From positions 1 through 58,766 of the forward strand of contig CANQCT010000003.1 in NCBI GenBank assembly GCA_947589835.1: a DNA stretch of 58,766 bases. Reading direction: 5' to 3'. Source of the stretch: an uncultured Clostridia bacterium (GTDB taxonomy: Bacteria; Bacillota; Clostridia; TANB77; CAG-508). The notes beneath the pieces were generated by a model. The model searched no databases and was not told where the DNA came from. It saw nothing but the letters and a program-made list of their open reading frames with translations. Below are positions 11,861 to 52,612 of the stretch, piece after piece (the stretch's first letter is position 1; every line of letters starts with the position of its first letter). Both the position numbers and the translations under genes were made by a program.

Positions 11861-11972
11861 GCTTGAAAAGTACTATTTTTCGCAGTTTTGAGAGGTCCCG
11901 TTCTGATTTGCTTCTTTGAACTTACAACTGCAACGGGCATTTGAAAAACAAGAAAACTAGTACTTTTCAAGC
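11861..11972. repeat. Repeat family A, filled copy
   Basis: GCTTGAAAAGTACT-core-AGTACTTTTCAAGC; core reads reverse relative to the other copies on the + strand. Confidence 0.9.
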
Positions 11973-12129
11973 AATAAGTTATAAAACCATTAACTAATAG
12001 TATTAATTTAAAATTTTATACACCTATTGTCTATAAATTAAAATAGGTGTATAATGTTTAAGAAAAAACAAGGTAAAATGCTAATTTCTAATGTATTAAT
12101 TAAACATTAGTTAAGAAAGGACAATAAAA

Positions 12130-13893
12130 ATGTATAGAGATAATAATTGTGGAGAATTAAATATAAAAAATGTAGGACAAGAAGTAAATTTAGCAGGATG
12201 GGTACAAAAAATTAGAAACTTAGGCTCAATGGTATTTATAGATTTACGTGATCAATTTGGAATTACACAAATAGTTGTATCTGCAGATAATAAGTCAATT
12301 GATAAAAGCGTATTAAATAACATTGTAACAGAATGTGTTATAGGTGTTAAAGGAACCGTAATAGAGCGTTCTAACAAAAATCCTAAAATGCCTACTGGCG
12401 AAATTGAAATAGATGCTAAAGAAATTAAAATTTTAGGAAAATGTAAAAACGTATTACCATTTGAAATTAATTCAGAAAAAGCAGGAGAAGTAAAAGAAGA
12501 TTTAAGACTAGAATACCGCTTTTTAGATTTAAGAAATGATAAATTACACAAAACTATTTTACTTCGTAGTGAAATAATGAAAACACTTAGAAAGAAAATG
12601 GATGAACTAGGCTTTACAGAAATTCAAACTCCAATTTTGGCAAATTCATCACCAGAAGGTGCAAGAGATTATTTAGTACCAAGTAGGTTGCACCCAGGCG
12701 AGTTTTATGCACTACCACAAGCACCACAACAATTTAAACAACTTTTAATGGTATCTGGATTTGATAAATACTATCAAATAGCACCATGCTTCCGTGACGA
12801 AGACCCTAGAGCAGATAGAGCACCTGGCGAGTTTTACCAACTAGACTTTGAAATGAGTTTTGCAGAACAAGAAGATGTTTTAAAAGTATTAGCAGAAATA
12901 TTTACCACTGTTTTCAAAACACACACTAATTGGAAAGTAGATGAAGCACCATTTATTAAAATTCCATACTTAGAAGCTATGGAAAAATACGGTAGTGACA
13001 AACCAGACCTAAGAAATCCACTTATTATTCAAGATGTAACAAAAATATTTGAAAATGTAGATTTTAATGCATTTAAAGGAAAAGTAGTTAAAGCTATTGT
13101 AGTAGAAAATGGAGGTTTGCAGGGCAGAAAATTCTTTGATTCAATGACAGAATTTGCAGTAAATGAAGCGGGGGCAAAAGGCTTAGCATGGCTTAAAGTA
13201 GACGAGCAAAATACAGTTTCTGGCGGAATTGCAAAATTTATTACCGAAGATGTACAAAAAGCTTTAGAAGAGCAAATTGGAATGAAAGAAAACTCAGCAG
13301 TTTTCTTTATGGCAGATGAACTAAAACAAGTGCAAAAAATAGCAGGAGCAATTAGAATAGAACTAGGAAATAGACTAGACTTATTAGAAAAAAATGTATA
13401 TCGTTTATGCTATATTGTAGACTTTCCAATGTATGAATTATCAGATGAAGGAAAAATAGACTTTAACCATAATCCATTCTCAATGCCACAAGGTGGAATG
13501 GAAACATTACTTAACAAAAATCCACTTGATATTTTAGCATATCAATATGATGTTGTATGTAATGGTTACGAAGTTGCATCAGGAGCTGTTAGAAACCACG
13601 ATCCAGAGCTTATGGTAAAAGCATTTGAAATAGCAGGTTATAGCGAAGAAGAAGTTGAAACAAGATTTGGTGCACTATATAATGCCTTCCAATATGGAAC
13701 ACCTCCACATGCAGGCGCAGCACCTGGCTTAGATAGAATGGTAATGCTAGTTGCAGATAGCAAAAATATTCGTGAAGTAATAGCATTTCCTAAAAATAAA
13801 AAGGCAAGAGATTTACTTATGAGAGCACCAAGCAAAGTAAAAGAAGAACAATTAAAAGATGTTCATATAAAAATAGTTGAGGAAAAAGAATAA
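12130..13893 (+). CDS. aspS: Aspartate--tRNA ligase
   Basis: FIDLRD, PEGARDY, YALPQAPQQFKQLLM, CFRDED, GAD insert, PPHAGAAPGLDR. Confidence 0.97.
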   Translation: MYRDNNCGELNIKNVGQEVNLAGWVQKIRNLGSMVFIDLRDQFGITQIVVSADNKSIDKSVLNNIVTECVIGVKGTVIERSNKNPKMPTGEIEIDAKEIKILGKCKNVLPFEINSEKAGEVKEDLRLEYRFLDLRNDKLHKTILLRSEIMKTLRKKMDELGFTEIQTPILANSSPEGARDYLVPSRLHPGEFYALPQAPQQFKQLLMVSGFDKYYQIAPCFRDEDPRADRAPGEFYQLDFEMSFAEQEDVLKVLAEIFTTVFKTHTNWKVDEAPFIKIPYLEAMEKYGSDKPDLRNPLIIQDVTKIFENVDFNAFKGKVVKAIVVENGGLQGRKFFDSMTEFAVNEAGAKGLAWLKVDEQNTVSGGIAKFITEDVQKALEEQIGMKENSAVFFMADELKQVQKIAGAIRIELGNRLDLLEKNVYRLCYIVDFPMYELSDEGKIDFNHNPFSMPQGGMETLLNKNPLDILAYQYDVVCNGYEVASGAVRNHDPELMVKAFEIAGYSEEEVETRFGALYNAFQYGTPPHAGAAPGLDRMVMLVADSKNIREVIAFPKNKKARDLLMRAPSKVKEEQLKDVHIKIVEEKE

Positions 13894-14001
13894 TTATATA
13901 AACTAATTTAAAAACAGTATAAAACTTATGAAATCTACTACAAAACATATAATTTATTAAAACAATAAAAGTTAAAAAATATAAAATTAAGGGGAATACT
14001 T

Positions 14002-15955
14002 ATGAAAAAGAAAATATTATTTTTTGTAGCATTTATGTTATTTTTATTATTAGCATGCTCTAATCAATCACAAGCAACATTCACAAAACAAAATTACACA
14101 ATAGATGCTATTGTGCTTCAAAATGGTGATATGTATGTAGAAGAAACCATACAATATAAAACCGATGAAAGTAAAAATGGAGTAACCAGAACAATAAAAT
14201 TAAGAAATCCAGGAAATACTACAAACTCAGCAACAGGTTTTGAACTAGAAGATGTTTTAGTTGATTATGAAAGTTGTATAAGAGTACAGTCAGCAGTAAA
14301 TGGACAAGACAAAGTTTATGAATATTCTTATGATGGGGATGAAGCTTATATAAAACTATATACTCCATTTAGATATCAAGGAAAAACAGTAAAGTATATT
14401 TATACTTTAAAAAATGTTGCCGTAAAATATAATGACATAGCAGAAATTTATTGGAATTTTATAGGAAATGATTCTACTGATAGAACAGAAAACTTAACTA
14501 TAAATATTGCTCTTCCATACGAGGCTTCACAAGATACAATATATGTTTATGGACATGGCTCAGATAATGGAACGTTCAAAAAAAATAGAAACTACATTAC
14601 ATTAACAGCACAAGATATTGCAGAAAAGCAAGCTATTGATGCAAGAGTTTTATTTTCTAAAGATGCAATATCAACTACAAAAATTGTAAATAAAAATGTA
14701 CTTCAAAATTATCGTAATGTAGAAGAAGGAATGAACAACAAAACCCTAGTTTTTGGAGTAGATATAAATATAATTGCTACAATTTGTATAGTTATAATTT
14801 TGGTAGCTTTTGTTATAATTTATAAAAAATATCACAGAAGATTTAAAAAAATAGATGGTTATGTAAGAGAATTACCTTATGGCTTAGATCCCGAAATTTT
14901 ACAATATGTCTACTATGGCAAAATTCAAAAAAATACATTTTGGGTTACCTTTCTAAACTTAGTAAAAAAAGGGATTTTTAGCATTGAAAAAACTACAAAT
15001 AAAGTAGGAAAAGAAACTTATGCTATTGTATATAAAGATGATAAACAAAAATTGCCAGATTATGAAGAAAAGGCAACTGAGTTAATTCTAAATTGTATGT
15101 CAGATGAAAACGAGCAAGACAAAAAGCAAATAGAACTTAAAAGATTAAAAGCAAAGCTTAAAACTAGTCAAGCCAATGAAGACTATGAACAATTTTGTGA
15201 AAGTATAGAAAAAGAAATAGATGAAATATTTGAAGAAGATAAAAAATCAAAAAAAATAAGAACGATAATAATTATTGTAATGACTTTATTTATATTATTT
15301 ATAGCAAGTTTAATACTAATAATAAATGGTCAATTAAAATTAGCAATACCATCTATGATACTTTTAGGAATTACTACTGTTCTTTTTGGTATGATTTTTA
15401 CTTCAATAGAAAAAGATGAAGCAACAATATGGCTTTTTGGATTGCTTCATTGTGCAGTATTTCAGGTAGCAGATTTTGGAGTGCTATTCAAGAGTGGAGT
15501 GGGATTATTTTATATTCCTTATCTAATGTTATTTATACTTATGATTTATTGCTGTAGGTTAAAAATAGAATCAGATAAAAAACAAGAAGTAAGGGGAATG
15601 GTAAAATCATTGAGAAATTATATAAAAGACTATTCTATGCTACAAGAAAAAGGAGTAGAAGACATTGTACTTTGGGGAGAATATCTTATAATGGCAGTAG
15701 CTTTAGGACTTAATAAAAATACTATTAATTATTTCTATGATGGATGTATACAAAATAATAATAGTCTAGGAACAAGCTTAGTAATTGTAGGAAATTACAG
15801 CACATTTTATAGTGGATTTGGCACTACATTTAATTCTGTTAGAGGTTACTCTAGCAGTAGTTCAGGAGGATATTCTGGAAGTAGTGGAGATTTCTCTGGA
15901 GGAAGTGACTCTGGCGGCGGTGGCCGGAGGCGGCGGAGGCACTGGCTCATTTTAA
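14002..15955 (+). CDS. DUF2207-type membrane protein with +1 shift at CGG 15925
   Basis: Signal peptide, EIYWNFIG, several TM helices, WGEYLIMAVALG, Ser/Gly tail. Skipping C15925 gives ...SGGGG-GGGGGTGSF* (stop 15953-15955) instead of RRRRRHWLILIL. Confidence 0.8.
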
Positions 15956-15972
15956 TATTATAATAAATTAAA

Positions 15973-51642: not shown

Positions 51643-51756
51643 GCTTAAATAGTACTAGTTTTCTTGTTTTTCAAATTGCCCGTTGCATTTAGCAGTTCAA
51701 AGAAGCAAAGTCAGAACGGGACCTTTCAAAACTGCGAAAAATAGTACTATTTAAGC
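51643..51756. repeat. Repeat family A, filled copy
   Basis: GCTTAAATAGTACT-core-AGTACTATTTAAGC. Confidence 0.9.
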
Positions 51757-51829
51757 AATTAAAACAGCACCCTCTTTATAATATATTAAAGAAGGTGCTT
51801 AATTATTCTTAAAACACTATATGAATATG

Positions 51830-52384
51830 CTAAATTATTCTAAAAACTATAAGGCTTAAAAAAACATAAGCATATTTATAAGCCTTTTTAGTATGTAACA
51901 AATTAATTAAATATGAAAAAGTTTCTTTCATAGCACTAAACTTATCTGCTAGTGTAACAACAAAAGTTTCTTTATAATGAGGAATTTTTATTGTTACAGG
52001 CCACATGTGATTTACAATAACATCTTGCTCAATTTCATTCAAATCAAAAATTTCAGTTGCATTTTTTAAAGCTGTTTTAGGGTGACTAAAAGCATGCATA
52101 TCAGTAAACCTTTTAGCTTCAAATATATGTGTATGCCAATCATATAAAAATAAGTCGTGTAACATAGCACCACGAGTAGCCGAAATATAATCTAAATGCA
52201 ATTTTTTACAAACAACATAAGTGTAATAAGCAACTTGCAAACAATGTTTATAACAAGAAGTATTTGAATGTTGATTAAAACTTCTCATTTTTTGTACGGT
52301 TTCATTTTTAATTAAATCTTGAATTATACAAAAAAATTCACCATAAGAACTTTTTTGTAACCCAAAGTCTTTTGTAATTAACAT
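51830..52384 (-). CDS. HD-domain phosphohydrolase
   Basis: HC..V, GAMLHDLFLYDW, HAFSHP, HMWP, ADK. Confidence 0.88.
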   Translation of the reverse strand: MLITKDFGLQKSSYGEFFCIIQDLIKNETVQKMRSFNQHSNTSCYKHCLQVAYYTYVVCKKLHLDYISATRGAMLHDLFLYDWHTHIFEAKRFTDMHAFSHPKTALKNATEIFDLNEIEQDVIVNHMWPVTIKIPHYKETFVVTLADKFSAMKETFSYLINLLHTKKAYKYAYVFLSLIVFRII

Positions 52385-52500
52385 AGAGTAAAAATCCCCT
52401 TTTTTTTATTTACTATATTTATATTATAACATATATTTTCAAAAAACGATATGTTTTTACTAAAAATTAAGAAATGTTTAATAGTTATAATTATACTAAA

Positions 52501-52612
52501 GCTTGCATAGTACTATTTTTCTTGTTTTTCAAATGCCCGTTGTAGCAGTAAGTTCATAGAAGTAACTCAGAACGGGACCTCTCAAAACTGCGAAAAATAG
52601 TACTATGCAAGC
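52501..52612. repeat. Repeat family A, filled copy
   Basis: GCTTGCATAGTACT-core-AGTACTATGCAAGC. Confidence 0.9.

What the first reader, a model, noticed from the sequence alone, without database searches (positions are those of the whole stretch)
11861..52612. Dispersed palindromic element (family A) whose core is present in either orientation or absent
Seven full copies (11861, 17629, 27911, 30456, 45898, 51643, 52501), one half copy (36076) and two empty sites (15973, 32995). Each full copy is arm-AGTACT-core of about 85 bp-AGTACT-arm. The arms differ between copies but are perfectly complementary within each copy (GCTTGAAA/TTTCAAGC, GCTCGAAT/ATTCGAGC, GCTTAGAAAT/ATTTCTAAGC, GCTTGCAT/ATGCAAGC). 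An asymmetric AT-rich flank (...ATTACATTAAA) orients the site. Relative to it the core is one way at 17629, 27911, 51643 and 52501 and the other way at 11861, 30456, 36076 and 45898. Empty sites have a single AGTACT. Inference: a tiny non-autonomous element that targets the centre of a REP-like palindrome and duplicates AGTACT, or an invertible and excisable cassette. No cognate enzyme is encoded in the window.
Basis: partly seen in the sequence, partly recalled or inferred. Interest (0 to 1): 0.72.

Follow-up and report, generated by a model that had tools for sequence, protein, structure and literature searches.

The report
IS66-type MITE with flipping hairpin core
The repeats are real copies of a gene-less, roughly 175-base DNA element, present about 134 times in this gut bacterium, whose ends match an IS66-family transposon that likely moves it, and whose conserved inner hairpin is found flipped or deleted at the same site in related species, likely through replication slips rather than a dedicated switch enzyme.

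Summary
Observation confirmed. This uncultured low-GC Clostridia genome holds 134 full copies. At orthologous loci of four relatives the core points differently at 11 of 42 loci, and 9 of 12 empty sites are filled elsewhere. The mobile unit is the whole ~175-bp element, AT-rich flanks included. Those flanks are terminal inverted repeats: one end's consensus matches, 20 of 20, a 1,924-bp single-ORF IS66 (ISBst12-type) element. Intact copies carry an exact 8-bp target duplication (7 of 12; shuffles 0.19). AGTACT is not a target duplication but a palindromic stem position, doubled in only 2 of 25 copies from more distant species. Empty sites look like deletions between 10-11-bp direct repeats. 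Flips occur at both nested inverted repeats, which suggests template switching. The ~115-nt core is a strand-specific, covarying hairpin with no Rfam match, oriented 89:29 with regional gene direction; its function is untested. No intact transposase is assembled in the element-rich genomes, only end stubs. The scan noted this family and other IS66-type hairpin MITEs before. Verdict: a new variant of a known kind.

The parts
11860..11973 (+). Full copy: inner hairpin (arms GCTTGAAA/TTTCAAGC, AGTACT stem, core). Strand given is the better-folding 'R' strand. Decayed MITE ends extend to about 11836-12001. Between asnS and aspS; core flipped in place between relatives G016 and G035.
15973..15994 (.). 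Empty site: arm-AGTACT-arm perfect palindrome with decayed A and B flanks (about 15953-16010), just upstream of mnmA.
17628..17744 (-). Full copy, arms GCTCGAAT/ATTCGAGC; shell about 17598-17782 (ends decayed). Whole element absent at the orthologous locus in G009, G016 and G024.
27910..28025 (-). Full copy, arms GCTTAAAT/ATTTAAGC; shell about 27880-28067 (ends decayed). Whole element absent at the orthologous locus in G009, G016, G024 and G035.
30456..30573 (-). Full copy, arms GCTTAGAAAT/ATTTCTAAGC; shell 30435-30604 with recognisable GTTAT...ATAAC ends; upstream of ruvA.
32966..33049 (.). Empty site with both IS66-type ends and hybrid arms (GCTCGAAT / ATTTCTAAGC) around one AGTACT at 33003.
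36076..36133 (-). Half copy (one side of the core, arm, A flank). Its TAG supplies the stop codon of the HepT-like ORF 35743-36105.
44067..44095 (-).
45897..46010 (-). Full copy, arms GCTTAAAT/ATTTAAGC; shell about 45872-46049. Orthologous site in G035 holds only the joined A and B flanks, in the opposite order, with no arms or core.
51642..51757 (-). Full copy, arms GCTTAAAT/ATTTAAGC; shell from 51619. Whole element absent at the orthologous locus in G009, G016, G032 and G035.
52500..52613 (-). Full copy, arms GCTTGCAT/ATGCAAGC; shell to about 52633 (ends decayed). Whole element absent at the orthologous locus in G009, G016, G024, G032 and G035.

Best explanation
The element is a ~175-bp gene-less repeat with IS66/ISBst12-type terminal inverted repeats and 8-bp target duplications, so it is likely a MITE moved in trans by that IS's DDE transposase, and it carries a ~115-nt conserved hairpin that is flipped or lost in place, likely by replication template switching and slippage. 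Shown: the ends, the duplication, a complete IS with matching ends, flips at both nested inverted repeats, precise filled/empty pairs, and covariation. Inferred steps: (1) the IS transposase inserts the whole shell plus hairpin into AT-rich intergenic DNA; (2) the ends then decay, while the hairpin is kept, probably by selection on a folded RNA made from one strand; (3) strand switching between the inverted arms copies one arm onto the other and inverts what lies between; (4) slippage between the 10-11-bp direct repeats made by the palindromic AGTACT stem deletes the core and leaves a perfect 'empty' palindrome; (5) recombination between copies swaps arms and loop segments and makes hybrid arms.
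For: Target duplication: among 12 of 227 copies with both ends intact, 7 have a perfect and 9 a near-perfect 8-bp direct repeat (shuffle means 0.19 and 0.34, maximum 2); 1 perfect at each of 4-7 bp and 0 at 9-12 bp. A looser set gave 11 of 40 against 0.29. Partner: L334 holds a 1,924-bp IS with its own 8-bp duplication and one 511-aa ORF, scored as NF033517 IS66 transposase above cut-off and PF03050. The A-end consensus of the MITE (59 ends) equals that IS end over the first 20 nt. 128 of 452 flanks match the end at 16 or more of 20, 0.3 expected. G000 has both IS end stubs at 5 contig starts, a one-ended stub with an 8-bp duplication and a C-terminal remnant; G035 has 27 end matches. ISDge4 of the ISBst12 group has one ORF, GTGAC/GTAAC ends and an 8-bp repeat (PMC12898284, passages). 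Flips: core-only at 3 loci, shell plus core at 5, shell-only at 1, unclassifiable shell at 3. Junction direct repeat of 10-11 bp in 103 of 130 copies. Template switching gives multiple compensatory changes and loop inversions, including in Firmicutes (PMC8794818, passages).
Against: No intact transposase of this IS is assembled in the five element-rich genomes; it was found in 6 of 51 genus genomes, in G000 only as a 33-aa remnant. The complete IS comes from another genus of the family (G382). Only 12 of 227 copies kept both ends, and none of the seven window copies shows a perfect duplication. Filled/empty alignments at 21 loci had ragged boundaries in the part of the output seen. The loop inversions in PMC8794818 are 4-8 nt, far shorter than this ~85-nt core. 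The direction of empty/filled change is parsimonious loss at L215 but ambiguous at the locus of L209/L218. No read-level or RNA data were obtained.
Confidence: 0.7

Rival explanations
1. The core is itself a mobile cassette. A site-specific recombinase or IS110-type enzyme recombines at the palindromic AGTACT, inserting it either way, inverting it or excising it, inside a passive MITE shell.
For: Filled and empty alleles are precise at AGTACT. An identical core points both ways between G016 and G035 at the 11861 locus. The hexamer region is 99% conserved in this clade. G000 encodes 10 tyrosine recombinase and 3 over-cut-off IS110 matches.
Against: AGTACT is doubled in only 2 of 25 rows from more distant species that keep the same core; the pattern with both 8-mers hit 0 of 5 such genomes. 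Flips also happen at the outer repeats (6 loci). IS110 and IS200 ends in G000 do not resemble the element on inspection. Hybrid-arm empties point to recombination between copies.
Confidence: 0.1
2. The core has no function of its own. Its conservation and pairing come only from gene conversion among copies and template-switch repair, and its orientation bias reflects differential loss on the lagging-strand template.
For: Arms and loop segments differ at 31 of 42 orthologous loci, so exchange between copies is frequent. Orientation follows the region even where neighbours give no cue: 28 of 39 in divergent or convergent gaps, and 5 of 5 where both neighbours oppose the region. Neighbouring genes are functionally unrelated. 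The family is absent from 34 of 51 genus genomes searched.
Against: Template switching perfects stems but would erase mismatches. Here unpaired loop bases and G-U/G.A pairs are near invariant (93% over 68 copies) while two loop segments drift to 64-67%. Pairing is strand-specific: A-U 34 / G-U 33 at one pair, C-G 54 / U-G 7 / U-A 6 at another. One strand folds better as RNA in 112 of 130 copies but as DNA in only 43 of 130.
Confidence: 0.15
3. It is a REPIN-like element moved as single-stranded DNA by the RAYT-like Y1 transposase of this genus.
For: A ~260-aa Y1 protein (NF047646 just under cut-off) lies upstream of radA or dnaE. Y1 matches occur in 34 of 51 genus genomes, and G000 has the gene split over two contig ends. 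Long hairpin, strand asymmetry and replication-linked orientation fit HUH biology (PMC3116915, passages).
Against: None of the 24 plus 10 large-Y1 loci scanned has a family A copy or flank; they carry GGGACA/TGTCCC repeats instead. The whole element has an exact 8-bp duplication and IS66 ends, which HUH transposition does not make (own knowledge).
Confidence: 0.05

Closest known systems
ISBst12 group of the IS66 family (ISBst12, ISDge4; PMC12898284 passages) and MITEs derived from insertion sequences (for example MITEPye1, PMC11578231 passages)
   Same: GT(N)AC termini, 8-bp target duplication, single-ORF DDE partner; small, non-coding, intergenic, hairpin-forming.
   Different: Carries a conserved ~115-nt hairpin not derived from the IS interior. 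That hairpin flips and deletes independently of the ends and also occurs with almost no trace of the ends in other species.
bcr1 repeat of the Bacillus cereus group; ERIC and Correia/NEMIS elements (review PMC3184786, passages)
   Same: 100-160-bp dispersed MITE-like repeats that fold into long hairpins; bcr1 keeps its fold by compensatory changes.
   Different: bcr1 has 5-bp direct repeats and ERIC is flanked by TA, per the review. No passage seen reports an inner segment in both orientations ('inversion' 0 occurrences). Sequences were not compared.
REPIN-RAYT systems (PMC3116915, passages)
   Same: Dispersed intergenic hairpins, tandem clusters, decayed singletons; a RAYT-like gene is in the genome.
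   Different: Not clustered at the RAYT gene; has IS66 ends and an 8-bp duplication.
Integron attC sites (PMC5371416, abstract)
   Same: Works like: imperfect palindrome with one better-structured strand whose placement relative to replication appears biased.
   Different: Dispersed, not arrayed; the inner GTT/AAC is not conserved (CCGTT/AACGG becomes CCGAG/CTCGG and CCAAG/CTTGG); no linked integrase shown.

Membership tests
IS-derived MITE (IS66/ISBst12 type) | Terminal inverted repeats homologous to those of an autonomous IS | tested here: met
   A-end consensus identical to the L334 IS end over 20 nt; B end differs at 3 of 20; 128 of 452 flanks at 16/20 or better against 0.3 expected
IS-derived MITE (IS66/ISBst12 type) | Target duplication of the partner's length (8 bp) | tested here: met
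   7 of 12 intact-ended copies perfect at 8 bp (6 independent loci), 0 at 9 bp, shuffle mean 0.19; the IS itself has an 8-bp duplication
IS-derived MITE (IS66/ISBst12 type) | Small, no transposase gene, dispersed, with whole-element presence/absence between relatives | tested here: met
   166-195 bp; 134 copies; 21 of 93 relatives' copies lie at loci without a full copy in G000; four window loci lack the whole element in relatives
IS-derived MITE (IS66/ISBst12 type) | Cognate transposase present in the same cell | tested here: inconclusive
   Both end stubs sit at G000 and G035 contig ends, but no intact ORF is assembled
IS-derived MITE (IS66/ISBst12 type) | Mobilisation in trans by that transposase | not testable with these tools
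   Needs a transposition assay
ISBst12 group (for the partner IS at L334) | One ORF with an IS66 DDE domain, GT(N)AC ends, 8-bp repeat | tested here: met
   511-aa ORF, NF033517 183.2 bits against cut-off 180, PF03050 E 1.6e-19; compared with ISDge4 passages
Site-specific invertible/excisable cassette | One fixed, conserved crossover site | tested here: not met
   AGTACT doubled in 2 of 25 rows from distant species; inversions also at the outer repeats
Site-specific invertible/excisable cassette | Cognate recombinase linked to the sites | tested here: inconclusive
   One XerC/D-like gene at G000 C53 lies between two copies, but so do the genes of 23 other close pairs; IS110 ends do not match
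Site-specific invertible/excisable cassette | Both orientations or excised circles within one population | not tested
   No read-level result was obtained
REPIN-RAYT | Cognate repeats clustered beside the RAYT gene | tested here: not met
   0 of 34 large-Y1 loci carry family A
REPIN-RAYT | HUH-type insertion without a fixed target duplication (own knowledge) | tested here: not met
   Exact 8-bp duplication
Integron attC | Conserved GTT/AAC recombination boxes and cassette arrays | tested here: not met
   Inner stem varies; copies are dispersed among housekeeping genes
Catalogued RNA motif (Rfam 15) | Match at gathering score, or any match over the element | tested here: not met
   Whole window: only group II intron hits; 27700-30700 at E up to 5: 0 of 7 weak hits overlap a copy

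The most novel reading that the evidence does not exclude
The inner hairpin is an uncatalogued functional RNA, made from one strand and mostly antisense to neighbouring genes. It hitch-hikes on IS66 ends, has been sown into about 30% of the large intergenic gaps, and its in-place flips act as heritable switches for the adjacent genes. That would be a genome-wide, transposon-spread, invertible regulatory RNA module.
Probability: 0.1. Interest if true: 0.78.

Novelty: new variant of a known kind. Interest (0 to 1): 0.4.

Why it matters
It names the likely mover (an ISBst12-type IS66 element) of a repeat family that earlier scan notes left without an enzyme. It also separates three processes that look like one 'switch': transposition of the shell, in-place inversion, and precise core loss. 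With 134 copies and 42 orthologous loci across five species, the family is a natural dataset for measuring template-switch inversion of an ~85-nt segment and replication-strand bias. The strand-specific core is a candidate new RNA motif spread by a MITE. If the core proves functionless, this is an ordinary MITE family.

Tried and rejected
AGTACT as target duplication: rejected. RAYT-like Y1 as mover: no family A beside 34 loci. IS200 and IS110 ends in G000: no resemblance on inspection. Core derived from the IS interior: not significant (14-89 of 200 shuffles as good). Riboswitch or leader of one gene class: neighbours unrelated. Promoter in the flanks: a TATAAT-like hexamer sits in 62 of 118 A flanks, but the scan of 45800-46200 found 2 sites against 2.6 expected, and the hexamer is part of the terminal repeat; not used. 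Collection scans: 0 in viral contigs, 0 in JGI metagenomes, chance hits only in plasmids. (401 genomes of the order) had a gap set too long, found only 4 of G000's copies and is uninformative. Covariance model: 0 of 149 family genomes drawn, with only 24 candidates scored per genome, so 'not found in those searched'. Control repeat families for orientation gave 3:4, 2:2, 2:2, 9:1 and 10:1, and one seed was mis-chosen; the bias is therefore not unique to family A. The 82:9 bias in relatives uses local skew and cannot separate replication from transcription. Old versus young copies showed no difference in bias (32:9 against 57:20, p 0.66). Sequencing runs: no RNA holder listed. Paper searches that found nothing on this family; the taxon name tried was my guess. 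PMC95320 was not held. No supplements were read.
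Full report
Setting. The window is contig C3 of a 1.59-Mb, 95% complete draft genome, 28.7% G+C, with spoIIID and housekeeping genes. Records that share one of its mobile-element ends are titled uncultured Clostridia.

Observation. Every coordinate is right. 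A profile from the seven window copies finds 134 full copies in the genome. Relative to flank A the core runs one way in 82, the other in 38 and is unclassified in 14; arms are perfectly complementary in 112 of 134. Across five genomes 168 of 226 copies have perfect arms, of 17 types. About 16 empty sites were collected in G000, several with hybrid arms, as at 32995. Copies fill about 126 of 414 intergenic gaps over 200 nt, by a simple ORF call. An exact-motif search finds 132, 40, 26, 22 and 19 matches in G000, G069, G016, G035 and G024, and 8 of 51 genus genomes in all. A covariance model finds 17 of 51, two of them weak, and 0 of 149 genomes drawn across the family.

Polymorphism. I took all pattern loci of G016, G024 and G035 and 30 of 40 of G069. 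They form 42 loci shared by two or more genomes. The core direction differs at 11: 3 core-only flips, 5 flips of shell plus core, and 3 with an unclassifiable shell. One further locus has the shell flipped around a fixed core. Arms differ at 31 of 42. At the window's 11861 locus G016 and G035 have the same core and flanks in opposite core orientation. Of 13 empty-pattern loci fetched from relatives, 12 are true empties; 9 of them (7 distinct loci) are filled in another genome, 2 lack the whole element in G000 and 1 did not map. G069 L215 is empty where G016 (98% flank identity), G000 and G035 are filled, which is most simply a precise loss. Of 16 G000 empties, 2 had a filled orthologue among the sampled loci and 14 had no sampled orthologue.

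AGTACT is not the target duplication. More distant species of the genus carry the same core inside self-complementary arms, but only 2 of 25 rows have two AGTACT. The hexamer is a stem position that happens to be its own reverse complement in this clade. That makes the two junctions direct repeats of 10-11 bp in 103 of 130 copies, at the foot of a long hairpin. By established knowledge of palindrome-stimulated deletion (own knowledge), that is the setting for precise loss by slippage.

The mobile unit and its partner. Window loci 17629, 27911, 51643 and 52501 lack flanks as well as core in the relatives that could be aligned. Well-kept copies run from GTTAC to GTAAC, about 175 bp. Among the 12 of 227 copies with both ends intact, 7 have a perfect 8-bp direct repeat outside the ends and 9 have at most one mismatch, against 0.19 and 0.34 in shuffles; none has 9 bp (two of the 7 are orthologous). 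Five G000 contigs begin with one of two stubs that end in the same motif, the signature of a collapsed multi-copy IS; G035 has 27 such matches, the listed ones at contig ends. Searching 401 family genomes for the motif gave 13 with a match and one complete element: G382, 1,924 bp, 8-bp duplication, one 511-aa ORF. The ORF is an IS66 transposase; both G000 stubs align to its two ends at 86-90%. The MITE A-end consensus equals the IS end over 20 nt. This matches the ISBst12 group as described for ISDge4 (PMC12898284, passages). Against: the intact ORF is not assembled in any element-rich genome, and no window copy keeps a perfect duplication. The same ends also occur with no cargo (G035), decayed around another repeat family (G000 C20), and around a different hairpin in another genus (L338). 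In the distant species only 3 of 50 flanks still resemble the ends (0.26 expected; two are orthologous), so the link between shell and core is either old and decayed or was made more than once.

The core. On 68 copies (7 from the window, 22 from distant species, 39 sampled from the close relatives) my structure has 94.7% of cells paired and 23 of 38 pairs with changes on both sides; 0 of 500 shuffles reach this and slid controls give 39-51%. Kinship inflates these numbers and the structure was drawn from the same alignment. The inner stem varies in step (CCGTT/AACGG, CCGAG/CTCGG, CCAAG/CTTGG, CAGAG/CTCTG). Loop bases stay about 93% identical while two loop segments fall to 64-67%. Pairing favours one strand: near-invariant G-U pairs, an A-U/G-U polymorphism, a C-G/U-G/U-A series and a tandem G.A. 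That strand is the more stable as RNA in 112 of 130 copies, as DNA in 43 of 130. Rfam has no match. No transcript evidence was obtained.

Orientation. The opposite strand runs with the regional gene direction in 89 of 118 classifiable G000 copies (p 3e-8) and with G+C skew in 84 of 115; the shell shows no such bias (48:56). The bias persists in divergent and convergent gaps (28 of 39, p 0.009) and in 5 of 5 cases where both neighbours oppose the region. That hints at replication rather than local transcription, as for attC sites (PMC5371416, abstract), but draft contigs cannot prove it. In distant species 25 of 28 rows (orthologues included) sit just after a same-sense stop codon, and two control families are also gene-oriented.

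Mechanism. Shown: IS66-type ends, 8-bp duplication, a complete IS with those ends, flips at two nested inverted repeats, precise core loss or gain, arm turnover, strand-specific covariation. Inferred: mobilisation in trans; inversion and arm matching by template switching (PMC8794818, passages, where inverted loops are much shorter); loss by slippage; exchange between copies; selection on a folded RNA. The RAYT-like Y1 gene, IS110, IS200 and DUF559 were tested as movers and show no link.

Known and new. MITEs borrowed from IS families and hairpin repeats kept by compensatory change are known (PMC3184786 and PMC11578231, passages). Ten full-text searches, seven aimed at this family or combination, found no description of it; most subscription journals are outside that library. 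The scan has noted this family before, including in this genome, without a mover, and has noted other IS66-type hairpin MITEs in gut Clostridia (read after my own IS66 result). Those notes are leads, not support. Verdict: real, a new variant of a known kind, interest 0.4.

Noticed in passing
window 915-2677 (-), ORF 988-2331: Group II intron with reverse transcriptase/maturase ORF.
   Followed up: no
window 10189-10306 and 40250-40367: A second, G+C-rich palindromic repeat family (about 8 copies in G000). Elsewhere it is nested in GGGACA/TGTCCC repeats like those beside the RAYT-like gene, and it is present or absent between relatives.
   Followed up: partly
G000 C51 start and C34 start; L151, L152, L163, L244-L253: RAYT-like Y1 transposase (~260 aa) upstream of radA, with a second copy upstream of dnaE in several species, flanked by GGGACA/TGTCCC repeats. 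In G000 it is split by an assembly gap.
   Followed up: partly
window 35442-36105: MNT-HepT toxin-antitoxin-like pair, absent at the orthologous locus in G032, joined directly to the half copy, whose TAG is the HepT stop codon.
   Followed up: partly
window 53712-54385: ParE-like toxin gene with a small upstream ORF.
   Followed up: no
window 4655-5164: SpoIIID ORF with two SpoIIID stretches, from a 226-nt duplication at 81% identity.
   Followed up: no
L030 (G024) against window 11500-12400, and G000 C12:31211 against L099: G024 is 100% identical to G000 across these loci while about 85-92% elsewhere: recent transfer or bin contamination.
   Followed up: no
G000 C1:17604, C2:43744, C10:22038, C24:14542, C26:5417, C44:9632: Six tandem pairs of copies 19-82 bp apart, some with identical cores and hybrid arms.
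   Followed up: partly
G000 C11:21773-21867 and C46:1-77: A one-ended 95-bp IS66 stub flanked by an 8-bp duplication, and an IS66 end joined into a family A core.
   Followed up: partly
L338:3141-3301 (G516) and G000 C20:16317-16477: The same IS66-type ends around different hairpin cargoes: a 161-bp MITE with an 8-bp duplication in another genus, and a 160-bp repeat family in G000.
   Followed up: partly
G000 C55:1896, C2:23266, C9:18619, C4:9329: A ~580-bp duplicated upstream region in four places; three hold a diverged family A core and one an empty site.
   Followed up: no
G000 C91 (L012): An ORF fragment with a KDSSN motif like the IS66 N-terminal region, cut by an IS200-like insertion and next to another DDE-like ORF (family not tested).
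   Followed up: no
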